DNA of 64,000 bases from assembly GCF_035084215.1 (NCBI RefSeq), contig NC_090328.1, forward strand, positions 35,154,001 to 35,218,000, in the 5' to 3' direction. The notes under the pieces were generated by a model. It did not search any database, was not told where the DNA came from, and was given only the letters and a program-made list of their open reading frames with translations. The DNA is from Heptranchias perlo. Taxonomy: Eukaryota. The position numbers were made by a program, and so were the translations under genes. Of this stretch, positions 1-63,795 are shown one piece after another. Position 1 is the stretch's first letter. Each line of letters starts with the position of its first letter.

Positions 1-575
1 GGTGGTAGAGGCCAAGGGTTTGGGAGGTGCTGTCGAAGAAGCCTTGATGAGTTGCTGCAGTGCATCCTGTGGATGGTACACACTGCAGTCACAGTGCGCC
101 GGTGGTGAAGGGAGTGAATGTTTTGGGTGGAGGATGGGGTGCCAATCAAGCGGGCTGCTTTGTCCTGGATGGTGTCGAGCTTCTTGTGTTGTTGGAGCTG
201 CACTAATCCAGACAACTGGAGAGTATTCCATCACACTCCTGACTTGTGCCTTGTAGATGGTGGAAAGGCTTTGGGGAGTCGGGAGGTGAGTCACTCACTG
301 CAGAATACCCAGCCTCTGACCTGCTCTTGTAGCCACAGTATTTATATGGCTGGTCCAGTTAAGTTTCTGGTCAATGATGACCCCCAGGATGTTGATGGTG
401 GGGGATTCGGCGATGGTAATGCTGTTGAATGTCAAGGGGATGTGGTTAGACTCTCTCTTGTTGGAGATGGTCATTGCCAGGCACTTGTCTGGTGTGAATG
501 TTACTTGCCACTTATGAAGCCAAGCCTGGATGTTGTCCAGGTCTTGCTGCATGCGGGCACAGACTGCTTCGTTAT
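1..575 (-). mobile_element. Non-LTR retrotransposon fragment (L2/CR1-group LINE, C-terminal RT region)
   Basis: ORF 295..552(-) QQDLDNIQAWLHKWQVTF...ILGVIIDQKLNWTSHI is a typical post-RT LINE segment; same family recurs at 7458, 19620 and 34380. Confidence 0.85.
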
Positions 576-2367: not shown

Positions 2368-2599
2368 GATTTTTATACAATTGTAAACAATTTTACAACA
2401 CCAAGTTATAGTCCAGCAATTTTATTTTAAATTCACAAGCTTTCGGAGGCTTCCTCCTTCCTCAGGTAAAAGGAGGAAGCCTCCGAAAGCTTGTGAATTT
2501 AAAATAAAATTGCTGGACTATAACTTGGTGTTGTAAAATTGTTTACAATTGTCAACCCCAGTCCATCACCGGCATCTCCACATCACGATTTTTATACAA
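2368..2599. mobile_element. Penelope-like element terminal foldback (inverted pLTR ends) with 13-bp TSD
   Basis: Perfect 83-bp inverted repeat 2377-2459/2470-2552; 34-nt tail homologous to the PLE end at ~62218; flanking direct repeat GATTTTTATACAA at 2368-2380 and 2587-2599. Confidence 0.85.
2432..2470 (-). ncRNA. Minimal type I hammerhead ribozyme motif (PLE-associated)
   Basis: tttac-CTGAGGA-a-ggag-gaagc-ctcc-GAAA-gc-TT-gtgaa: intact core, stem II, stem I, palindromic AAGCTT in place of stem III. Confidence 0.7.
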
Positions 2600-5500
2600 C
2601 TTCACTTTTATGCATTTTGATGGTGATGAATGAAGGTTGATGTTTCATAGGTGTGGTTTTACATCTATTTAAGATTTAAGGATGTATTACATATAAAAAA
2701 TATATATGAACACCATTGTGTAAAGTTGTGAAAATATCTCTTCGATATAGATTAATGTCTTTTCAACAGATCCCATAGTTTTTAAAGTTCAGGAAAGGAA
2801 GAATGGATTGTTGACTCTAACCAGATGGCCACAGGCTGAAGTTGGTTGAGTTATTTAGGATGCTACTATTATATTTTGCAGAAGAAATGATTAGCTTCTT
2901 ATCCTGCTTGAATGATCCCTTCTTCTGGCAGATCATAGAGCAGGATTCATAAGCACTAAACAAGTCTACGACACCCACAACAAATAATCATTATTTAGAC
3001 AATCGTGTAAACTGTAGAGCGCACTTTATCAACCAGTTCAGCATGAAGTCTGCTTGGAGGGTCTGAATTTGCAGCTTGGAAAATGGTGGGAAGTGATGCC
3101 AAAGATGGTATCGGCCTGGAAAGTTAGCCAAGCTACAGGGAATAATGGTAAACCAGGACAGGAGTGGGCTGGAATTGGTGGTCAATATTTTACCCTGTGA
3201 GTTGAATGTAACTGTTGGGTTCCCACGTCACAATAAAGCCTGGTCCATATCTGTGATTATGCATTTCTAAAATTATTATTTGTTGTATATAGCACAGCCA
3301 ATACCGTATCCATACTTACTTTGGAACCTGTGTATATTTGAGCTTAGCACATAAAAGAAAAATGCATTAACATTGTAATTGTAGTAAGTATTTAAAAATG
3401 TATACTTCCCAAAGAATCCTGATTACTCTAAAATAATAAGCTGTTTACACTGGCCATCTGAGTTTAGAGCAGACCAGACCGTCTAAAGCTGTGCACAGGA
3501 TGAGTTCTGCCCCCCTGCATCAATTGCAGCATGAAGCAAACTAATTTCTGGAGTGGGTTTCACACTGTTATTTGTTTGGGAGGCAGTTCATTGCAAACAG
3601 TTGATAACTTCTGTGCTACATCTGTCCTTTGTCCAAATTGAACAGAAGAAAAGGTATATACGTAGAAACTGGCAACACATGCAGCTTTGCTGGAGGCTTA
3701 TGAAGGAGGAGGGTAGATGATAGTGGGGAGGAATTGAAAAAACAAGTTAAGATAAGAATAGGCAATGAGCAAAATTTCACATCCTTACAATAAAACCGTA
3801 AGTTCATGCTGTTTGCTTTTCTGCTCTCTTGTGCTGTGATCAAAGCCTGTTTCCATAAAGTCTATATTTTTCAGACTTGTGCTAGAAATTTGCAGAAGCT
3901 TTAAGAATGCATTCATTAACCAGCTCTGTGGGGTCGCTTGGAGGGGTGAGGAAGGGATGGGATGCAGAGATCACAAATGGTGTATAAGCAAATTATTGCT
4001 GCATTTTTGTATCAGTATGTTGAATTCAGAGGGAAAACAAAAAAAGTGCGTGTTTATGTAAAAGGAACAGTTTTGAGTTGTAAAAGAAAATTAATACCAC
4101 ATGAAAACATGTTCCAGGATTTAGTAATCCTGCATTTTACAGGAGAAGGAAAGCTTGGAGGAGTATTTTCATTGCCAAGCACCCTCCATCAATTGTTTGA
4201 TCTATTTTAAAATGTTACGATACTGAAATGGGTCGTTCCATCTATCAAGTCTGTGCCAGTATTTTTTCTCCACCTAGTCTACTCCCACTTTTCTGCTTCC
4301 TCCTCATTTCTTTTTAATATTACTCATTTTCAAGCAACTATCTAATTCTGTAGTCTCATGGGAGATATCTTTCATTCACTTTCCTCTTGTTTTTGCATGG
4401 CCCAGATGTGTCAGAGTGCTGTATATGCTTACCTTTTAGCCTGGCCTGAATCATTCTGAAAAAGGCATTTTTACATCAACATCCAGGGAATGTTTCTCTG
4501 AATCACATCATTGAATTCTGAAGTACAGAGATTTTTTTCCTGGAAACTTCATAATTCTTACTTTCAACTGAGTTTAAATTCACAACTAATCTACATACAC
4601 CGATGGAAATAAAATCCTTTTATAGACTTCTAAGAAATATCACCTGTGCTGTGTTTCATAAAATAGTATCTTACTTTCCACATAGTATGACTTGGGGGTG
4701 TATACCAGTGTCCTATAGTGACGTTACTGCTTTTTTTCTCTCTATACATTTGACCACAGAATGGCCTGGAAAATTTGTGCTGTGGTACCAACAGACCAGA
4801 CCACACTGAGCTCTTTCCGTCGGTCTGATGCATCCTGAAAAGCCTGGTTTAGCAGGCGATGGTTAACATTGCACACAAGGGGCAGAGTTCCAAGTGCTGA
4901 CGCTGTGGCCACGAGGTGGCTTTTCCCCACATGTTTTTCAAAAAGTATTTCGAATAATTTTTACCTGAACATTTTTGAACCACTATTTCTAATCTTCAAA
5001 ATGAGGATTTAAACAAAGTAAATATTTTACAATAACATGATTAAATTAGTCCATTGAATTATTTATGTGTCTTTTAATGCCATCATTAAAGTTTTTACCT
5101 CAGCCTGGGCTTGGACTTGATTTGATTTTTTTTTGTCCAGAGCTGTGTTGCTGTTGACTGAATTTGCATTTTGCAGTCTGAACATGTGCAGTGTACTGCA
5201 CATCCTGTTTCTCAGGATGCATTAGGACTGTTCTGTCAGCTATACTGATAGATTATTTATCTTTAACTTCTAGCAATTTCTGCTCAGTTTTTCAAAATTA
5301 TTTTAGGAAAAGCTACAGCACAGTTCACAAACTTTATTCAGGTAAACTTTAACAGAGGTGGGTGTGTCTTTATGTATGAGGAAAGAAATGTGAGCGTACT
5401 AATTACAAACCTTTTGTAGCTTTTGTTTTGTGCTCTATAAATTTCAGAAAGCCCACATTAGGGCTGACTTGCTCCGCGTTTTCTGTCACCCTCATGGAAA

Positions 5501-10889: not shown

Positions 10890-11132
10890 GGGGGTGATTT
10901 TAAACCCCAAGAACTAGTGGGTTGGGGGCCGGTGGGAGTTGAAAATAGTTGTTTTTTGGGTCGCGACCGCAACCCGGCTTTATTTCCGGGTTTAACATTG
11001 GCGCGGAAAAATACAGGCTTTGCATTGGGAATGCAAAGTCGGAAAATTTTGTGGTTGTGATCCAAAAAAACAACAATTTTCAAATCCCATCTGCCCCCAA
11101 CCCGCCCATTCTTCGTGTTTAAAATTACCCCC
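10890..11132. mobile_element. Harbinger/PIF-type MITE
   Basis: Long TIRs starting GGGGGTGATTTTAAAC, 3-bp TSD ATA on both sides, second copy at 18573. Confidence 0.85.
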
Positions 11133-13997: not shown

Positions 13998-16777
13998 CAG
14001 AATCATAGAAATTTATGGCACAGAAGGAGGCCATTCGGCCCATCGTTTCTGTGCTGGCCGAGAAAAGCTATCCAGCCTAATCTCACTTTCCAGTTCTTGG
14101 TCCGTAGGCACTTCAAGTGCATATCCAAGTACTTTTGCCATGCGTTGAGGGTTTCTGGGTCTACCTCCCTTTTAAACAGTGAGTTCCAGAACCCCACCAC
14201 CCTCTGGGTGAAAAGAATTCTCCTAAACTCGCCTCTAATCCTTCTACCAATTACTTTAAATATATACCCCCTAGTCACTGACCCCTCTGCTAAGGGAGAT
14301 GGGTCCTTCCTATCCACTTTATCTAGTCCCATCATAATGTTATACACCTCAATTAAATCTCCCCTCAGCCTTCTCTGTTCCAAAGAAAATCTCCCCTCAG
14401 CCTATCCAATCTTTCCTCATAGCTAAAATTGTCCAGTCCTGGCAACATCCTCGTAAATCTCCTTTGTACCCTCTCTAGTGCAATCACATCTTTCCTGTAA
14501 TGCGGTGACCTGAACTGTACGCAGTACTCAAGCTGTGGCCTAACTTGTGTTTTATACAGTTCTAGCATTACCTCCCTACTCTTATATTCTATGTAAGGAA
14601 TCTTACAACACCAGGTTAATAAAGGAAAGTATTCCGTATGCCATCCTAACACCTTATCTACCTGTCCTGCTATCTTAAGAGATCTGTGAACATGCACTCC
14701 AAGGCCCCTGTGTTCCTCTTCCCCCTTCAGCATCCTCCCATTTATTGTGTACTCCCTTGCCTTGTTTGCCCTCCCCAAATGCATTACCTCACACTTAGCA
14801 ACATAGGAACAGGAGTAGGCCATTCAGCCCCTTGTGCCTGCTCCGCCATTTGATAAGATCATGGCTGATCTGTGACTAACTCCATATACCTGCCTTTGGC
14901 CCATATCCCTTAATACCTTTGGTTGCCAAAAAGCTATCTATAGCAGATTTAAATTTAGCAATTGAGCTAGTATCAATTGCCGTTTGCGGAAGAGAGTTCC
15001 AAACTTCTACAACCCTTTGTGTGTAGAAATGTTTTCTAATCTCGCTCCTGAAAGGTCTGGCTCTAATTTTTAGACTGTGCCCCCTACTCCTAAAATCTCC
15101 AACCAGCGGAAATAGTTTCTCCCTATCCGCCCTATCTGTTCCCCTTAATATCTTATAAACTTCGATCAGATCCCCCCCTAACCTTCGAAACTCCAGAGAA
15201 TACAACCCCAATTTGTGTAATCTCTCCTCGTAACTTAACCCTTGAATTCCGGGTATCATTCTAGTAAACATACGCTGCACCCCCTTCAAGGCCAATATGT
15301 CCTTCCGAAGGTGCAGTGCCCAGAACTGCTCACAGGTACCCCAGGTGCGGCCTAACCAGGGTTAGACCGCACCTGGAGTACTTCTCTGGATTGAATTCCA
15401 TTTGCCACTTTTCTGCCCACCTGACCAGTCCATTGATAACTTCCTGCAGTCTACAGCTTTCTTCCTCACTGTTAACCACATGGCCAATTTTTGTATCATC
15501 GGCAAACTTCTTAATCATGCCTCCTACATTTAAGTCTAAATCATTGATAAATACCACAAAAAGCAAAGGACCTACTACTGAGCCCTGTGGAACCCAATTG
15601 GAAACAGCCTTCTAGTCACAAAAACACCACTTGACCATTATCCTTTGCTTCCTGCCACTGAGCCAATTTTGGATCGAGCGTGCCACTTTCCCTTGGATCC
15701 CATGGGTTTTTACTTTTCTGACCAGTCTGCCATGTGGAACCTTGTCAAAAGCCTTGCTAAAATCCATGTAGACTACATCAAACATGCAGCCCTCATCGAC
15801 CCTCCTTGTTGCTGCCTCAAAAAATTCAACCAAGTTAGTCAGACTCGACCTTCCCATATCAAATCCTTGCTGACTGTCCTTGATTAACCCGTGCCTTTCT
15901 AAATGACGATTAGTACTGCCCCTCAGAATTTTTTCCAATAATCTGGCCACCACCAAGATTAGGCTGACTGGCCTGTAATTACTCAGTCTGTCCCTTTCTC
16001 CCTTTTAAACAGTACAATGTTAGCAGTCCTCCAATCCTCCGGCATCATGCCTGTAGCCAGAGAGGCTTCGGAAATGATGGTCAGAGCCTACTCTATTTCC
16101 ACCCGTGCTTCTCTTAACAGCCTGAGATACATTTTATCCGGGCCTGGCGATTTATCTTATAAAGGGGATTAGCATCTCTGAAATATTTCCTCTCTCACTA
16201 TGTTTATCCCATCCAATATTTTACACTCCACCTCCTTAACTACAATCTCTGCACGTCCCCCTCTTTTGTGAAGACAGACGCAAAGTATTCATTAAGAACC
16301 ATTCCCACATCTTTCGCCTCCACACACAGGTTATCTCCTTGGCCTCTAATAGGCCCCACTTTTTTCTTAGTTATTCTCTTGCTCTTTATGTGTTTATAAA
16401 CCGTCTTTGGGTTTTCCTTGATTTTACGTGCCAATATCTTTTCATGCCTTCTCTTTGCTTTCCTAATTTCCTTTTTAATTTTACCTCCTGCACTTTTTAT
16501 ACTCCTCTAGGCTTTCTGCAGTATTGAGCTCTCGGTATCTGACGTAAGCTTCCCTTTTTTACATTATCCTACCATGTATGCTTCTTGATATCCAGGGAGC
16601 TCTAGATTTGGGAGTCGAACCCTCTTTCTTTGTGGTAACATATTTGCTCTGAACCCTCACTATTTCCTCCTTGAATGCCTCCCACTGCTTTGACACTGAT
16701 TTATCTTCAAGTAGCTGTTCCCAGTCCACTTTTGCCCGATCACATCTCAGCTTAGTAAAATTGGCCTTTTCCCAATT
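13998..16777 (-). mobile_element. CR1 LINE nested antisense in the preceding CR1
   Basis: RT ORFs on the minus strand (YMDFSKAFDKVPH, FADDTK); TSD GATTCA at 13992-13997 and 16778-16783. Confidence 0.9.
14797..15379 (-). mobile_element. Young CR1 3' fragment, third nesting level
   Basis: ORF 14876..15295 nearly identical to ORFs at 20747 and 51206; host reads through cacactt/acttctctgg (ACTT duplicated). Confidence 0.9.
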
Positions 16778-18572: not shown

Positions 18573-18810
18573 GGGGGTGATTTTAAACCCCAAGAACGGG
18601 TGGGTTGGGGGCGGGTGGGAGTTGAAAATAGTTGTTTTTGGGTCGCGGTCGCAACTGCAACCTGGCTTTATTTCCGGGTTTAACGTCGGCGTGTAAAAGT
18701 ACATTGGGAATGCAAAGCCTGAAAATTTTTCTGTTGCGACCCAAAAAAGAACTATTTTCAACTCCTACCTGCCCCCAACCCACCCGTTCTTGGGGTTTAA
18801 AATCACCCCC
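18573..18810. mobile_element. Harbinger/PIF-type MITE
   Basis: ~75-bp near-perfect TIRs GGGGGTGATTTTAAACCCCAAGAACGGGTGGG; TSD ATA at 18570-72 and 18811-13. Confidence 0.9.
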
Positions 18811-29533: not shown

Positions 29534-30461
29534 TGATGATTCAAAGTTGTTCTTTTACACTAAAAAAAATTGAATTAAGCAATGTAAATAACACCACAAA
29601 TTGGGAATTTAGTACAAAAAAGTGACTTATCAGATGATTTGAATTAAGCAACTTTGAATATGGATCACTATGGTGCGGCAGTTTCTCCAAGGAAAATAAT
29701 GAACGTGTTAGAAAGCTCTTAAGCCTAATATTAAGCCAAGTAATAATTATCTCCTGATTTTGAGATTTTCTGTTCCAGAGTAAATATAATCACTCCTTTA
29801 AAAGATGGGTTGATTTATCACAGTGTTTGATGGTTGGAAATGTGCACAACGGTTCGGGACTACTAAAGTATTTGACAATTAACAACTGTGCGAATTGTCA
29901 CCAAAAAAAGGTGCAAATCTGTGATTTTATAGTGTATATGCTCACTGGCACAGCTCACCACTATTGCCAGCTGAGTAGAGTTTGGACCTTTCAACTAACC
30001 TGAAGTCTGGAATCTGGTGGGGGTGAGGGCGGCATAGCAGGGCTCTAATTCTGCAGGACATGCTACAATAACAGCCAATATGTATGAAAAATAAAACATT
30101 ACCCTGCAAGCAAGTACTTTAATGGGTAGGGTGATGCTAGCTGGGCAAAAATTGGGAAGCTTGACAGCACTCTATTGTTTTAGCTGTTGAGCTGTGTGGT
30201 TTTAGCTGTTGAACTACATCAGTACCCCTGCGCACTCTTAGGGTCCTTTTAAACTTTCTCTCTGCCCACCTGCCCATAAGCTCTCCTGACTTCTGTAAGT
30301 GGAGTGATCCCAATGGGGAGGGAGAGCATGCGCTCCACACGGGCAAACAAAAAACTCGCTTTCTTGGCAGCTTGGCTTGGAAGCTCTTAAAAATAGTGAT
30401 GGGATTCTGTGTGCGTCAGCTGCAGACGCTTGGCTGACCGAAAACAAATAAAAGGGAATAG

Positions 30462-30636
30462 AAACAGAAAATTCTGGAAATGTGCAGCAGGTGGGCAGTA
30501 TCTGAAGAGAGGAGATAAGCTAATGTTTTGGACTGGACTCCATCAGTTCTGATCGAGTACCCCCGGAAATTCTTAACCTATCTTTCACTTTCAGATGCTG
30601 CCAACCTCCTGCATATTTCCAACATTTTCTGTTTTT
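30462..30636. mobile_element. Old inverted Penelope pLTR remnant
   Basis: aaacagaaaattctggaaat...atttccaacattttctgttt imperfect inverted arms, homologous to 49121 and 61684. Confidence 0.7.
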
Positions 30637-30841
30637 ATTTTAGATTTAGTGATTTTTTTTGACTAACTAGAAAAGGGAGGTACTGCAAGGCCGAGGGATA
30701 GGTACTTTCAAAGAAAGCAAAGGCAGTGCTGGTTACAGTGCATGGGTTTGACCAGATAACTGAGAAATGATGGATGTTTTTTTTTTCTGGATGTGTCCAG
30801 TAATTATGCAAGTACTGTTTTTTGACCCCCCCCCCCTCCAG

Positions 30842-34863: not shown

Positions 34864-36700
34864 GTGACGGCAGGCAAGATTGCTGGACCGGCAAGAAAGT
34901 GCGCACCAAGGTTCTCGGATGACGTACTGGAGGCCCTGGTGGAGGGAGTGGACGAAAGGAGGGCCATCCTGTACTCGCAGGGTGGCAGGAGACCCTCTAG
35001 ACACCAGCTGCAGAGGCAGTGGGAGGCTATGGCCCAGAAGGTGAATGTCAGGGGTGTGACACCGCACACGTGAGTGCAATGCCGAGAAAAGTTCAATGAT
35101 TTGACTCAAATGGTCAAGGTGAGTGAATGCAAGTGTCAAGTGGCATATCCTACCAACTGCTTCACGCACGACACCCACCCCCCAACAAACGTTGCCCATC
35201 CGTACGCAACGCTGCACTTCGCATGCTGCATCTCACCCTCACATAATACCACACAACCACCACTCACAGGTCAAACACACTGGCAGCTATTCAACCATGA
35301 CAGGCACATCACCCAGGCACCTTGCAGGACACTCACTGACACACTTCCCTTTGTCTTGCAGGAAAAGGGAGCAGCAGGAGAGACCTGAGGGAGGACAGGC
35401 ACGCCTGCACCTCCTCGCCCCCCTGGAGAAGACAGTGTTGAGCATCATTGGGCGGGCCATTGCTGCAGACGTGGCCACAGGCAGTGCTGGAGGCTCGCGA
35501 AGGCGGTCTCTGCATATCTAATGCTCCTTCTCGTTTCCCACATCCCCTTCATCCCACAATCTTTTCTGTCTCATTTGCTGCAGATGGTGTCAGCACACAT
35601 GTCTTACTTGCTCCTCTCCCCGCTCCGCAACTCAACCCGTCTCCCTTTGTCATTGCAGATACCCAAGAACTGGAGCCGGCACCATCCGAGGTGGAGGGGG
35701 AGGAAGACAGTGAGAATGAAGCCACACCGTCACTTGATCTGATTCTCACATCCACCAGCTCAGATACTGACACTGTGCATCATTTAGATGTTAGGTTAGA
35801 GGAGGGATCTGCACGTGGTGAGACACCGGGCACAAGTGCGCAGGAGCCGGGGTGGGGGGAATTGATAACGCAGGTGCCAGCTCACCGGAGGGCGAGGTCG
35901 CACAATGGTTCTGCTGCCGAGGTGTCAGATGATGACGGGCCAGGCTACAGAAGACAGCTGTTGAGTGTACACCATCAAATGCTCAGTGCACTGAAAAGCC
36001 TGCTAGAAAGCTTGCATGCAATGTCAAGGAGAATGGAGGCGTCCACCTCGATCTTGGCACAGGGCTTTGCGCAGAGCTTGGAGCCCATTCTTACCCACGT
36101 GGAACAGGTAGTCACCTCTGTCAGCACACCTGTGGAACCCACCATGTGGCAACATATGATGACTGTGCTGAAATGGAAGCTACAGCATCAAACAGCTGCC
36201 ATTGCAGCACAAACCGATGTCATCAAAGGTCTGCAAGCTTCAATTGAAGCTCAACGTGCTGCAATGGCAGCTCAGACTACTGTTGTGGAAGCACAGACTG
36301 CTGCTATCGTGGCTCTTGGTACCACTGGGGCTTCCAGGGCATCACAGCAGTCCAGCAATCTGTTCTCCAGCAGATCGCCATGGCAGTCAGACCTGCTGTC
36401 CTCTCTCTGGACGACAGCCTTCCTGCTCCCACCCCTGCCACTCCATCTTGCTGTTGCCCTATCAGCCAGCCAGGCCAGAGTGCTGCAGCCCAGGCCGAGA
36501 TGGTGCAGTCTGAAGCCGGGCACTCCTGGCCCAGAGCTGCTCAAGGTCGTCCTTCAAGGCCATCTGCACGCTCCTCCATTGAAGGTCAGCAGCCTTCCAC
36601 CACCCATGCTCCAGCCATTGGAGATGCACTTCGTAGGACCACTAGGAAAGGAAAAGGCACACGAACGACAGGCACTAAGGGAATACACGAGGGTGAATAG
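34864..36700 (+). pseudogene. Harbinger Myb/SANT-like DNA-binding protein gene (3 exons, disrupted)
   Basis: APRFSDDVLEALV...W...HT*VQCREKFNDL; donor at 35119, acceptors before 35362 and 35659; in-frame stop and frameshifts. Confidence 0.8.
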
Positions 36701-36897
36701 TATCAGTTTGTTTGCATCATTTCATGTGTTAATTTATAAATGTGAATTTGAATTTGCTTTTGGTGGTGATTTTTATTTCTGCGATGTGCTGCGGGAGGAA
36801 GCAATGTGTAATCATATGGAGGGCGATTCGATGGTCGTGTTGGAGTGGACTGGTGGAGAGTGTAGGACTGTTGGTGACTTGGGAGGTGTTGTTTACG

Positions 36898-37900
36898 TTA
36901 TTGATATCGCTCATGGATCAGGTGATCACGCAGAGCCCTGGCAGACAGGGCCAGTGTTCCTTGTTGCCCCCTTGCATCTTCCTCCAATTCCCCCTCCATC
37001 TCCTCAGCCTCCGCCTCAGCCGCAGCCTCCTCTGGTAAGGGTCTTGCCTGATAATTGGTGGCGAGGGCTGTTCCCTCATGATGGCGAGGTTGTGCAGCAT
37101 GCAGCATACCACGACGAATCTTGACACCCGCTCAGCTGAGTGCTACAGGGCTCCAACAGAACGGTCCGGGCAGCGGAAGTGTTGCTTTAGGACACCTATC
37201 GTATGCTCAATGATGTTGCGTGTGGCAGCATGGCTCTCGTAGGCCCACTCTGCACATGTCTGTGCGTTCCTGACCGGGGTCATGAGCCACCTCGAGGGTA
37301 TAGCTCTTGTTACCCAGTAGCTAGCCTTTCACTTGCCGAGCCGGTTCAAAGATACGTTGGACTGCCGCATCGTGACAGCTCCCAGACTAGCAGTCATTAA
37401 CCTCCGTGATGTGCTGCGTGTGGTAGCACACGAGCTGCACTTTCAGGGAGTGGAACCCCTTTCGGTTCACTAAGATGGCCGAGTTAACGTGGAGTACGCA
37501 TGGCAATATGCGTGCCGTCAATGGCACTCTGCACCAGGGGGAAGCCTGCAATGCGAGCAAACCCTCATGCTCACTCGTTCTGTTTCTCTATGTCAAGAGG
37601 GAACATGGTGAACCTGTTGGGCATCTCGTACAGTGCCTCCGTGACAACCCTTATGCAGCAGTGCACTGCACACTGTGAGATGTTACACAGCTCGCCAGCA
37701 GAGGCCTGAAAGGATCCAGGGCCGTAGAAGTTCAGCGCCACGGTTACCTTCACAGCCACAGGCAGTGCTGTCCTTGCCCTGCTTTGAGGCTGCAGCAGGT
37801 GACAGATCTCCATTGCTACCTCTTTGGTGAACCTCAGCTGTCGGATCCTCGCTCATCTGGAGGTAAGAGTGGTGTTCCCTGAAGGCTGCTTCCTCCTCCT
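36898..37900 (-). pseudogene. Harbinger (HARBI1-like) DDE transposase, frameshifted and deleted
   Basis: ALPVAVKVTVALNFYGPGSFQ...; CCMLHNLAI C-terminal motif. Confidence 0.85.
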
Positions 37901-41805: not shown

Positions 41806-42959
41806 ATGGGGGGCGCCATGGCTGCAGTCACCACTACATCCGAGGTCGAGTAACCTCGCCAGGCATAGCGCCCACCTCCACCACTTGGATCTCCACAACA
41901 CAGTACTGCACCACAGGCACCTGCACAAGAACACAGAGGGAACAACAGAGAGAGTGACGTTGCAGGTGGCACTACCTTTGCCACGGGGTCTACAGACCAA
42001 GGCTCAACTTCCAGGACCTCTCTGAGGAGCAGTGTATACGGAGGCTCAGAGTCAATTGCCAGGTAGTCGCAGACATCTGCAGCCTCTTTCGTGCCGAGCT
42101 GCTCCCGGCTAGGCCAAGCAGCATCTCCTTACCTGTCACTATCAAAGTCACCACTGCCCTCAACTTCTTTGCCTCCGGTTCATTCCAGGGTGCCACCAGG
42201 GACGTCACCGGGGTCTCTCAGTTGTCTGCACACAAGTGCATAAGGCAGGTCACCGACGGCTTGTTTTGCAGGGTCTCGCAGTACGTCAACTTCCCCATGG
42301 ATGACCTCAGCCAGACGGAGAGGGCAGTGGGATTCCACTCTGTGGCTGGCTTCCCACGGATGCAGGGTACAATCGATTGCCCCCATACAGCAATACGAGC
42401 ACCTCCACATGAATCAAGACTGTTCATCAACAGGAAGGGGTATCACTCCATCAACACTCAGATCGTTTGTGACCACCGCAAAAGGTTCCTTCACGTTTGC
42501 ACCAGATTCCCTGGCAGCTGCCACGATTCCTTCATCCTCCGGGAATATGCACTGAATACTCGCAAGGGCTGGCTCCTCGGGGACAAGGGATACCCCCTGC
42601 ACATGTGGCTCATGACACCTCTGAGGAACCCCATCACCAAGCAACAGCGTCGATATAACGACAGCCACATCGCTACCAGGTCTACAATTGAGCATGCTAT
42701 AGGGCTGCTCAAGATGCAGTTTGGGTGCCTTGATCGTTCTGGGGGAACGCTTCAATACGCACCAGACAGAGTGGGACGCATTATAGGCGTGTGTTGTGCC
42801 CTGCAAAACATGGCACAACAAAGAGGGGTGCTGCTTGAGGAGGCCCCATCTGCCACCCACATTGAGGAGGAGGAGCAGGAGCAACTCATGGGCAGAGCAG
42901 CGACTCACCTGGCTGCTCGTAAGGCCAGGGAGTCAATGATATGTGAACGGTTCTCCTAA
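41806..42959 (+). pseudogene. Harbinger (HARBI1-like) DDE transposase
   Basis: GTIDCPH, NRKGYHSIN, PGSCHDS, LLGDKGYP, IEHAIGLLK, CCALQN; N-terminal frameshift and apparent internal deletion. Confidence 0.9.
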
Positions 42960-49118: not shown

Positions 49119-49388
49119 AAAAGCAAAATACTGCGGATGCTGGAAATCTGAAATAAAAACAGAAATTGCTGGAAATATTCAGCAAATCAGGCAGCATCTG
49201 TGGAGAAAGAAACAGCGTTAACATTTCAGGTCAATGACCAGTTCTGGATAAGGGTCATCGATGTGAAACATTAACTCTATGACCCTTCGCCAGAACTGGT
49301 CATTGACCTGAAATGTTAACTCTGTTTCTTTCTCCACAGATGCTGCCTGACTTGCTGAGTATTTCCAGCATTTTCTGTTTTTATTTCA
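49119..49388. mobile_element. Inverted Penelope pLTR remnant (foldback)
   Basis: ~110-bp near-perfect inverted arms plus a 5' extension aaaagcaaaatactgcggatgctggaaatc, same family as 61684. Confidence 0.85.
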
Positions 49389-61097: not shown

Positions 61098-61779
61098 GTG
61101 CTGTATGATTCTATGATTTGTCAGATTGTTGCTCGTCCCGCACAGGTGAGTACCTCGTTTTCATATGCTGCTTGTTACTGCCGTTAGTAAATGTTCTGTC
61201 CTGATCCCCATTTGGGAATTAAAGCAGATGTTTGCTATTGCAATTGATTAGTACAGCACCCGATTTCTCTTCCATGTGGACTGAATGGTAGCTTATGATT
61301 ATTGAAGTTGGGCAACGGGAAGTTTGGCAGGGCTACCAAATTTGATATGTAGGTTGCGACCATGCATTTTTGTCATTGGGGGAAAAACAACTTTGTGGTG
61401 ATCAAGATGCATCTTCATAATTCTAAGAAAATAGTATTCTCCGAAGGTATTGAAGATCTGCTGGTTAGGATTTTTCATCAACATAGTTTTTTTTCAGAAA
61501 TAAGGTTGATTTATTTTTGCCTTGTTAAATCTATGTTGGATGTGCAAATGGTGTATCAACACTTCCTGAATGCAGTTTTAACACAGGACTACTGTTTACC
61601 GCATGGCAGTCAGGGTTAGTATTACTACCGGCTGGGAAGTTACCTATTCTTTTCTAGGAGGAAATCAATATCATTGAATATATCAAAAACAAAATACTGC
61701 AGATGCTGGAAATCTGAAATAAAAGCAGAAAAGCTGGAGATGCTCAGCAAGTCGGGCAGCATCTGTGGAAAAAAGAAAG

Positions 61780-61816
61780 AGTTAACGTTTCAGGTCGAAG
61801 ACCTTTCGTCAGAACT
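61780..61816 (-). ncRNA. Minimal type I hammerhead ribozyme motif
   Basis: agtt-CTGACGA-a-aggtc-ttc-gacct-GAAA-cg-TT-aact; palindromic AACGTT. Confidence 0.75.
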
Positions 61817-62215
61817 GGAAGATGTTAAGAGTTAAAGTTTTTGAGCAAGTACAGAGCCAGGAAAAAGGGGGGAGGGAGGGGAGGGAACGAAATAACAAAA
61901 GGGAAGGTCTGTGATAGGAGAGAGGGCATGAGAGATAAAATGACGATAGGGATGATGGTGCAAGGCAAGGAGATTGGGACAGGTTAAGAAACAAAAGATT
62001 GATCAGGAGTAGCAGTAAATGGCAGCAGCAGAACCATTACCAGCACTTGCTGATCAAAAAAATGGGAGCAGTGTTTATGATCTGAAGTTATTGAAATCAA
62101 TGTTGAATCCGGAAGGTTGTAAAGTGTCTAAACAAAAGATGAGGTGCTGTTCTTTGAACTTACGTTGAGCTTCATTGGAACAGTGTAAGAGGCCGAGGAC
62201 TGAGGTGCCAGAGTA

Positions 62216-62887
62216 GCCATGATGTGGAGATGCCGGTGATGGACTGGGGTGGACAAATGTAAGGAGTCTTACAACACCAGGTTATAGTCCAACAGCTTTA
62301 TTTGAAATCACAAGCTTTCGGAGCTTTCTTCCTTAGTCAGGTGAGTGTAGGGTTCCATAAAGGCACAGCATATATAGTCAGAGAACAATGCCTGGTGATT
62401 ACAGATAATCTTTCCAACAGCCCGTTATCACACCTCGGCAGAGATATAATCAAAGCAATCAAAGGAGTGGATGGTGTTCAGACAGAGAAATATTACATCC
62501 CAGACTACTGAATACACAAACGGTCAGAACACAAAGACAGAGAGAGACACACACCCGAAAGGCAGAGAGAGAGAGAATGACCAGATGCATTAAAAACAGA
62601 TAACTTTGTTTCTGCTGGTGTGGTTAAATGTAGCGTGACATGAAGCTAAGATCCCAGTTGAGGCTGTCCTCATGGGTGCGGAACTTGGCTATCAATTTCT
62701 GCTCGACGATTTTGCGTTGTCGTGTGTCTCGAAGGCCGCCTTGGAGAACGCTTACCCGAAGATCGGAGGCTGAATGTCCTTGACTGCTGAAGTGTTCCCT
62801 GACTGGGAGGGAACCCTCCTGTCTGGCGATTGTTGCGTGGTGTCCGTTCATCCGTTGTCGCATCTGCATGGTCTCGCCAATGTACCG
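62216..62887 (-). mobile_element. Penelope-like element, family B (GIY-YIG plus pLTR), inside family A
   Basis: ORF YIGET...RQRMNGH...HFSSQGH...EQKLIAKF; end homologous to the 2368 foldback; core-mutated hammerhead at 62308-62344. Confidence 0.85.
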
Positions 62888-63795
62888 TGCACCTGTCAAT
62901 TACAGTGCAGGGGAATCCTCGGTTAAGGAAAAAGGAAGACATATCGGAAGCACTGGTGTGGAAGGTGGTATCGTCAGAACAGATGCGACAGAGAAACTGG
63001 GAGAAGGGAATAGAATCCTTACAGGGTGGGAGGAAGTGTAATCAAAATAGCTGTGGGAGTCGGTGGGCTTATAATAGATATTGGTTGACAGTCTATCCCC
63101 AGAAATGGAGATAGAGAAGTCGAGGAAGGGAAGAGTCAGAGATGGACCATGTGAAAGCGAGGGAAGGGTGGAAATTGGAAGCAAATTTGATGAAATTTTC
63201 CAGCTCAGGGCGAGAGAAGGAAACTGCACCGATATAGTCATCAGTGTATCAGAAAAAGAGGTGAGGGAGGGGACCTGAGTAGGACTGGAACAAGGAATGT
63301 TCCACGTATCCCTCAAAAAGGCAGGCATACGGGTTCCCATAGCGACACCTTTTATTTGGAGAAAGCGAGTGGAGTCAAAGGAGAAGTTGTTCAACGCAAG
63401 AACAAGTTCAGCCAGGCGGTAGATGGGGGCTGGTTGGACCTCCATTCAAGGAAGAAGTGGAGGGCCTGCAGGCCGTCCTGGTGGGGGACGGAGGTGTGGA
63501 GGGACTGACTGTCCATGATGAAAAGGAGACGGTTAGGGCCGGGGAACTGGAAACTGTTAAAGTGATGAAGGGCGTCGGAAGAGTCGTGGATGTAGATTTG
63601 AAGAGACTGGACAAGAGGAGAAAAAATAGTCGAGATAGGAGGAAATAAGTTCCGTGGGGCAAGAACAGGCTGAAACAATGGGTCTCCCAGGGCAGTCCTG
63701 TTTGTGAATCTTGGGAAGGAGGTAGAAGTGGGCTGTGCAGTGTTGGGGGACTGAGGTTGGAGGCCATGGAGGGAAGATCTCCAGAGATTTATCAT

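What the first reader, a model, noticed from the sequence alone, without database searches (positions are those of the whole stretch)
2368..2599. Perfect 83-bp foldback: a ~220-bp non-coding PLE derivative carrying a hammerhead
Seen: zero-mismatch 83-bp arms, 10-nt loop, 34-nt tail and a 13-bp TSD, so the insertion is young. The unit consists only of PLE family-B terminus. Known: PLE insertions often show inverted, truncated pLTRs. Inference: either an extreme truncation product or a mobile mini-retroelement in its own right. It would form a long dsRNA hairpin in MSH3 pre-mRNA (ADAR/Dicer substrate) and a possible DNA cruciform.
Basis: partly seen in the sequence, partly recalled or inferred. 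Interest (0 to 1): 0.7.

Follow-up and report, generated by a model that had tools for sequence, protein, structure and literature searches.

The report
Mirror-image Penelope retrotransposon stub
This perfect DNA hairpin in an MSH3 intron is one of about 6,500 near-identical mirror-image stubs of a Penelope-type jumping gene in this genome, each likely built afresh when two short DNA copies of the front end of the gene's RNA are joined head to head, rather than a self-copying mini-element.

Summary
Observation confirmed: 83-bp perfect arms, 10-nt loop, 34-nt tail, 13-bp TSD, in an MSH3 intron. It is not special: 6,459 head-to-head stubs with inner gaps of 0-60 nt derive from an intact 3,083-bp tandem Neptune-like PLE (902-aa RT/GIY-YIG ORF). 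The self-propagation reading fails its own test. The exact junction occurs at 8 loci, and the 7 others carry other arm variants. In 100 sampled stubs, 91 junctions differ, and the commonest one occurs in both orientations on two alleles. Outer ends map to two sites about 35 nt apart, like the two RT start sites published for an anole PLE. Inner ends pile up about 30 nt behind a TATA box. Arms usually match, but 9 of 92 copies mix subfamily alleles. Best model (inferred): both cut target strands prime cDNAs that run off the transcript's 5' end and are joined by microhomology. The only complete hammerhead is antisense to MSH3 and is predicted to be locked in the hairpin. Known structure; the mechanism is inferred and was not found in print by my searches.

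The parts
2368..2380 (+). Left target-site duplication (13 bp); its last 4 nt also match the element (microhomology at the priming site)
2381..2459 (-). Tail-less arm: inverted copy of the PLE pLTR, outer end at the inner start site (site B)
2460..2469 (-). 10-nt loop: the extra 5' reach of the tail-less arm (hammerhead stem I 5' strand and core), joined to the other arm over a 1-nt A overlap
   Evidence: compared with the promoter-bearing copy L113
2432..2470 (-). Complete minimal type I hammerhead (stem I UUUAC/GUGAA, CUGAGGA, stem II, GAAA; predicted cut between 2437 and 2436); antisense to MSH3 and predicted to be sequestered
   Evidence: Rfam negative; cut site inferred from the recalled hammerhead consensus
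2470..2552 (+). Tail-bearing arm: direct copy of the pLTR starting at hammerhead stem II (no CUGANGA core)
2553..2586 (+). 34-nt PLE tail, ending just before the ATG of the parent ORF (outer start site, site A)
2587..2599 (+). Right target-site duplication (13 bp)

Best explanation
This is a short, TSD-flanked, head-to-head insertion of the pLTR end of a Neptune-like Penelope retrotransposon, one of thousands in this genome, likely made anew at each insertion by twin priming rather than copied from a master hairpin. Shown: parent element, copy numbers, 12-13-bp TSDs, two fixed outer ends about 35 nt apart, diverse inner junctions, inner ends clustering about 30 nt behind a TATA box. Inferred steps: (1) the GIY-YIG endonuclease nicks both target strands about 12-13 nt apart; (2) each 3' end primes reverse transcription, with 1-2 nt of pairing, at one of two internal start sites (tail end and about 35 nt inward) on the 5' pLTR of an uncleaved sense transcript; (3) both cDNAs run off the RNA 5' end after about 95-135 nt; (4) the two cDNA ends are trimmed and joined by microhomology, often with templated inserts; (5) the template is usually one RNA or RNAs of one source, and in about a tenth of copies two different RNAs. 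The stub lacks the TATA promoter and the ORF-start sequence beyond the tail, so it is probably dead on arrival. In either direction of transcription the antisense arm comes before the hammerhead, so the ribozyme is predicted to be masked.
For: Parent: tandem 3,083-bp units with intact 902-aa ORFs, RVT_1 hit E 3e-10, CX4CxxC linker and GIY-YIG-like motifs read from the translation; the ATG lies at the tail end. Counts: gap 0-30 nt 3,528; 31-60 nt 2,931; 61-90 nt 430, out of 38,134 anchors. In the first 100 anchors on C1: 30 head-to-head pairs, 1 tail-to-tail pair. Sample of 100 stubs: 91 distinct junctions; 95 with a tail on one side. The commonest junction (6 copies) lies 3:3 in the two orientations and on both stem II alleles. 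TSD found in 95 of 100, 12-13 bp in 72. Tail-less ends fall in a 3-nt window in 63 of 95, tail ends in a 7-nt window in 77 of 95. Outer microhomology averages 1.5 and 1.8 nt against 0.76 and 0.69 in a simulated null. The furthest inner end lies at TATA+28..32 in 46 of 100, further upstream in 13, further downstream in 41; arm modes at +30 and +31. Inner joints: 50 with 1-4 nt overlap, 8 blunt, 40 with inserts, 2 with longer overlaps. The longer inner reach is on the tail-less arm in 53 of 95 and on the tail arm in 32, which no single snap-back route gives. 9 of 92 copies have arms that differ at common subfamily alleles. Published: two internal RT start sites bounding the tail, both strands cut and extended, a predicted dimer, uncleaved RNA as the substrate, and a need for RNA beyond the start sites (PMC11167929).
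Against: No direct evidence for the transcription start: only contigs were available and they show no starts. Arms agree far more than independent templates would (14 discordances against 175 expected over 7 polymorphic columns in 98 loci), which also fits copying one arm from the other. The 9 chimeras could be later gene conversion. The sample was picked by exact 19-nt anchors on one contig and is biased to young copies that keep stem II. 41 of 100 furthest ends stop short of the TATA+30 zone, so trimming has to be assumed. The published model for head-to-head PLE junctions is self-priming on an antisense template (PMC3846280). The in vitro data come from a Poseidon-clade element, not this family.
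Confidence: 0.72

Rival explanations
1. Snap-back/self-priming: one cDNA (or an antisense RNA) folds back on itself and is copied, giving the second arm; still a per-insertion by-product.
For: 75 of 98 arm pairs are identical over 66 nt, and 5 locus-private alleles are mirrored in both arms among 92 loci. It is the published hypothesis for head-to-head PLE palindromes (PMC3846280 passages). Among the first 50 of 371 shorter stubs, 20 are centred on two natural self-complementary hexamers (10 each, counted by eye).
Against: A snap-back of the tail-primed cDNA needs the tail arm to hold the loop, yet the tail-less arm reaches further in 53 of 95 copies, including this one. An antisense-template snap-back gives only that class, yet 32 of 95 are the opposite. 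It cannot give chimeric arms at birth (9 of 92), and it does not explain microhomology at both outer ends. Palindromic centres are equally expected when two identical cDNA ends anneal.
Confidence: 0.18
2. Self-propagating non-autonomous hairpin retroelement: a master foldback is transcribed and reinserted in trans.
For: Thousands of copies of similar size (median 225 bp, range 162-265). Three of the 8 loci with the exact junction share arm variant and orientation (L031, L035, L036). PLE-derived non-autonomous elements are known (bioRxiv 10.64898/2026.07.22.740005; PMC8557442 passages).
Against: 91 of 100 junctions are distinct. Recurrent junctions occur in both orientations and on different alleles. 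The window's junction-plus-arm combination is single-copy among the 8. Stubs lack the promoter and the ORF-start region. Sizes form a continuum up to 3 kb.
Confidence: 0.06
3. Assembly foldback artefact.
For: Zero-mismatch arms; the loop and the left junction were not seen in the displayed contig rows.
Against: 13-bp TSD on both sides, one-sided tail, asymmetric loop with microhomology, and thousands of sister copies each with its own TSD. A same-sample short-read contig continues from the tail into the right flank with 0 differences (only 23 nt on the element side).
Confidence: 0.01

Closest known systems
Insertions of endonuclease-positive Penelope-like elements with an inverted 5'-truncated pLTR, a one-sided 30-40-bp tail and a TSD (PMC8557442 and PMC3846280, passages read)
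   Same: Head-to-head inverted pLTR, 34-nt tail at one end only, TSD, TATA box upstream of an Inr-like site, hammerhead in the pLTR.
   Different: No ORF or internal body at all; both arms stop at about the presumed transcription start; the class runs to thousands of copies in one genome.
Poseidon element of Anolis carolinensis, in vitro mechanism (PMC11167929, parts 1-2 of 4 read)
   Same: Two RT start sites bounding the tail, AT-rich targets (TSDs here 72% A+T), both strands cut and extended, uncleaved RNA used.
   Different: The parent here has the CX2-5CxxC linker of Neptune/Nematis, and its ORF starts at the tail end rather than at hammerhead stem II. The parts of that paper I read do not treat head-to-head joining. 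Here 1-2 nt of target-RNA pairing is seen, whereas the paper reports initiation without homology.
Non-LTR retrozymes, non-autonomous PLE derivatives (bioRxiv 10.64898/2026.07.22.740005, part 1 of 5 read)
   Same: Short, non-coding, PLE pLTR-derived, type I hammerhead.
   Different: Retrozymes are head-to-tail tandems with a hammerhead in each unit; this is a single head-to-head unit with one complete, masked hammerhead.
LINE-1 twin-priming 5' inversions (recalled, from no call)
   Same: Two target strands prime on the RNA and the cDNAs are joined by microhomology.
   Different: In L1 the two segments are consecutive and largely non-overlapping; here both cover the same stretch, so the product is a palindrome.

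Membership tests
EN+ PLE insertion (inverted pLTR type) | Sequence derives from the pLTR of an element encoding RT plus C-terminal GIY-YIG endonuclease | tested here: met
   Window arm matches L119 at 96.6% over 119 nt and L113/L100 exactly over 116 nt. 902-aa ORF with RVT_1; GIY-YIG-like motifs were read by eye from the translation, with no Pfam endonuclease hit at E 0.001.
EN+ PLE insertion (inverted pLTR type) | Inverted 5'-truncated copy adjacent head-to-head, 30-40-bp tail at one end, TSD | tested here: met
EN+ PLE insertion (inverted pLTR type) | Minimal hammerhead in the pLTR | tested here: met
   Core motif on the minus strand at 2470-2432. Rfam is negative and the isolated fold is not better than shuffles (z -1.06); cleavage was not testable.
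Neptune clade PLE (parent) | CX2-5CxxC linker between RT and a C-terminal EN | tested here: met
   C-x4-C-x2-C upstream of the EN motifs in the ORF; feature defined in PMC8557442, shared with Nematis.
Neptune clade PLE (parent) | RT phylogeny places it in Neptune rather than Nematis | not tested
   No reference PLE set was fetched; hence 'Neptune-like'.
Non-LTR retrozyme | Head-to-tail tandem with a complete hammerhead in at least two consecutive units | tested here: not met
   Single head-to-head unit with one complete core; definition.
Self-propagating non-autonomous element (SINE/MITE-like) | Many copies share one internal junction, orientation and haplotype | tested here: not met
ADAR/Dicer substrate | A-to-I edits or 21-22-nt RNAs from the hairpin | not testable with these tools
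   No run on record as RNA and no raw reads were offered; contigs cannot be tied to one copy.

The most novel reading that the evidence does not exclude
The roughly 6,500 stubs are an in vivo record that a Penelope-type enzyme primes both cut strands at its two internal RNA start sites, sometimes on two different RNAs, runs off the transcript's 5' end and has the two cDNAs joined head to head. That would replace the published antisense self-priming idea for PLE palindromes, map the element's transcription start from DNA alone, and seed the genome with thousands of about 100-bp intronic hairpins that mask their own ribozyme and could feed small-RNA silencing of the element.
Probability: 0.55. 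Interest if true: 0.5.

Novelty: new member of a known kind. Interest (0 to 1): 0.28.

Why it matters
The single copy is ordinary. The population is useful: the step that makes inverted pLTRs and the one-sided tail is described as unresolved in PMC8557442 and PMC11167929, and these stubs give thousands of natural end-points that make twin priming against self-priming directly testable, together with an intact young ORF for in vitro work. Earlier reports of this scan reached the same reading in other genomes and in another piece of this one, so this window adds little beyond two tests: orientation symmetry of recurrent junctions, and chimeric arms.

Tried and rejected
Rfam: no match at gathering score in the window. 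RNA: no RNA holder listed; 4 same-sample runs are only guessed to be RNA. Laying 3 of them plus 1 DNA run on the parent showed contigs over the tail and ORF start but no starts or ends, so nothing on the transcription start. Presence/absence: no joint skipping the insertion among the 15 displayed rows (90 more not shown), and the two other organisms' runs gave no cover of the flanks, so polymorphism stays open. Ends at the ribozyme cut: 371 shorter stubs of one haplotype; among the first 50 listed the commonest centres are two natural palindromes (10 each, by eye), one of which reaches past the predicted cut, so I saw no clear peak at the cut. Mirrored A-to-G changes: 5 mirrored private alleles in 92 loci, none A>G on the sense strand. 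Flank comparison for transduction or segmental duplication: the first 40 printed hits were partial matches, read as shared common repeats; this was not a full test. The first TATA-distance run had a false peak at +37 from missing parent variants and was redone with 38 variants. Rows dropped: 2 of 100 loci without complete arms, 6 more truncated or rearranged loci, 5 without a TSD. The Pfam scan for the host gene covered 150 of 416 frames. The first blast sample (L001-L030) was not used for the statistics because it was selected by likeness to the window. Look-ups of earlier findings by sequence and by place returned nothing.

Full report
Observation. The structure is as described: arms 2377-2459 and 2470-2552 are 83 nt and 100% complementary, 10 nt apart, and a 13-bp direct repeat flanks the unit. 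The tail is 2553-2586, 34 nt. As RNA it folds at -139.1 kcal/mol, z -26. Four bases of the left arm belong to the TSD, so the insert proper is 206 bp. The site is in an MSH3 intron on +: two frames match human MSH3 residues 547-636 and MutS_I exons lie upstream of the window on the same strand.

Hammerhead. A scan for the minimal core finds one hit in the window, on the minus strand, starting at 2465. The plus-strand arm begins at stem II and lacks the CUGANGA box, so MSH3 pre-mRNA carries no complete ribozyme from this insert. On the minus strand, forcing the hammerhead fold costs about 47 kcal/mol (-100.4 against -147.2). In any head-to-head stub the antisense arm is transcribed before the ribozyme, so masking is expected in both directions (inference). 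Rfam gives no hit; minimal PLE hammerheads lacking helix III are described in PMC6155905 (passages). The numbering and cut site rest on the recalled consensus.

Copy number. A DNA search of the own genome (3.25 Gb) scored 40 of 586 candidates and all 40 were full foldbacks. Exact 19-nt anchors gave 3,528 head-to-head pairs with inner gaps of 0-30 nt, 2,931 with 31-60 nt and 430 with 61-90 nt, out of 38,134 anchors, 11,022 of which have an upstream TATA motif. Among the first 100 anchors on C1 there are 30 head-to-head pairs with gaps of 7 to 3,130 nt and 1 tail-to-tail pair. The stub is thus the short, commonest end of a size continuum.

Parent. Tandem units of 3,083 and 3,081 bp carry intact 902-aa ORFs with an RVT_1 hit, a C-x4-C-x2-C linker and GIY-YIG-like motifs read from the translation. 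The linker marks Neptune and Nematis (PMC8557442); I built no tree. The ORF's ATG lies at the tail end. Copies L100 and L113 hold the window's arm and tail letter for letter between a TATA promoter and the ORF start. 34 of 100 sampled stubs are identical to the window over 115 nt, which fits a young family.

Self-propagation test. The exact junction occurs at 8 loci. The 7 others carry different arm variants, mirrored in both arms, and one has the tail on the opposite arm. I then took the first 50 listed loci of each of the two short classes on C1. 91 of 100 junctions are distinct and 95 have a tail on one side. The commonest junction, in 6 copies, lies 3:3 in the two orientations and on both stem II alleles. 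A master hairpin would fix all three features; recurrent formation does not.

Outer ends. TSDs were found in 95 of 100, 12-13 bp in 72, 72% A+T; median insert 225 bp. Tail-less arms end within 3 nt in 63 of 95, tail arms within 7 nt in 77 of 95, about 35 nt apart. Overlap between TSD and element averages 1.5 and 1.8 nt (my sums) against 0.76 and 0.69 in a simulated null. PMC11167929 (parts 1-2 of 4 read) reports for an anole PLE two internal RT start sites that bound the tail, cutting and extension of both strands, a predicted dimer, use of uncleaved RNA, and a need for RNA beyond the start sites.

Inner ends. Against 38 natural promoter variants, the furthest inner end lies at TATA+28..32 in 46 of 100, further upstream in 13 and further downstream in 41; among 160 arms of 10 nt or more the modes are +30 (21) and +31 (17). 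The drop from 2,931 to 430 in the next gap class shows that the edge is not only a product of my 60-nt limit. A start about 30 nt behind a TATA box is textbook Pol II spacing (own knowledge); it was not shown here. Joints show 1-4 nt overlaps in 50, blunt ends in 8, inserts in 40 and longer overlaps in 2; many inserts repeat nearby sequence, as in alternative end joining (recalled). In the window copy the tail-less arm stops about 5 nt and the tail arm about 16 nt short of the modal end, with a 1-nt overlap.

Twin priming against snap-back. The tail-less arm reaches further in 53 of 95 copies, the tail arm in 32, and 10 are equal; each snap-back route gives only one class. Arms agree strongly (75 of 98 identical over 66 nt; 14 discordances against 175 expected over 7 polymorphic columns), so the template is mostly one RNA or one source. 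Yet 9 of 92 copies differ at common subfamily alleles, which points to two templates or later conversion. PMC3846280 (passages) describes the same head-to-head layout in longer copies and proposes antisense self-priming, leaving it open.

Results against or open. There is no RNA evidence for the start, for editing or for small RNAs. Read support for this locus is partial and polymorphism is open. I saw no clear peak at the ribozyme cut and no mirrored A-to-G signal. The sample is biased to young copies on one contig.

Literature and novelty. Searches found the inverted-pLTR structure described, but no paper stating twin priming with run-off for PLEs. The library lacks most subscription papers, I read the papers only in part and opened no supplements, so this is not proof of absence. 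Earlier notes of this scan (seen after my reading was recorded) reach the same model in other genomes and in another piece of this one; they are unchecked AI notes and are not counted as support. Verdict: a real, ordinary copy of a known kind of PLE insertion; the interest lies in the population-level mechanism, not in this locus.

Noticed in passing
L121 (G000:C2:21272300-21276300): Head-to-tail array of at least 10 units of 404 bp, each with TATA promoter, hammerhead, tail and about 130 nt of the ORF start, flanked by a 12-bp duplication. This is a better candidate for a mobile non-autonomous, retrozyme-like derivative than the foldback.
   Followed up: partly
L058, L082 and window 14575-14620: Two stubs with different junctions have the same 12-bp TSD (CTTATATTCTAT) in different copies of one repeat, and an older PLE remnant in the window sits beside the same motif: a possible insertion hot spot inside a LINE-like repeat.
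   Followed up: partly
window 62213-62890 (-): Older, 5'-truncated copy of a related PLE subfamily: endonuclease end (80% amino-acid identity to the parent over 100 residues), pLTR, hammerhead and tail.
   Followed up: partly
window 49149-49388, 30457-30639, 61681-61803: Older foldbacks and a single arm of another repeat family with hammerhead-like letters near the centre, probably stubs of a second PLE family.
   Followed up: no
window 10890-11132 and 18573-18810; 41958-42956; 35442-37121: Two copies of a roughly 240-bp MITE-like palindromic element, a DDE_Tnp_4 transposase frame (E 6.5e-34) and an unexplained 560-codon stop-free frame, all inside MSH3 introns.
   Followed up: no
L031-L038 against L001: Hammerhead stem I partners change between subfamilies (GTGAA, GTAGA, GTGGAA against TTCAC or TTTAC) while pairing seems to be kept; seen by eye, not counted.
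   Followed up: no
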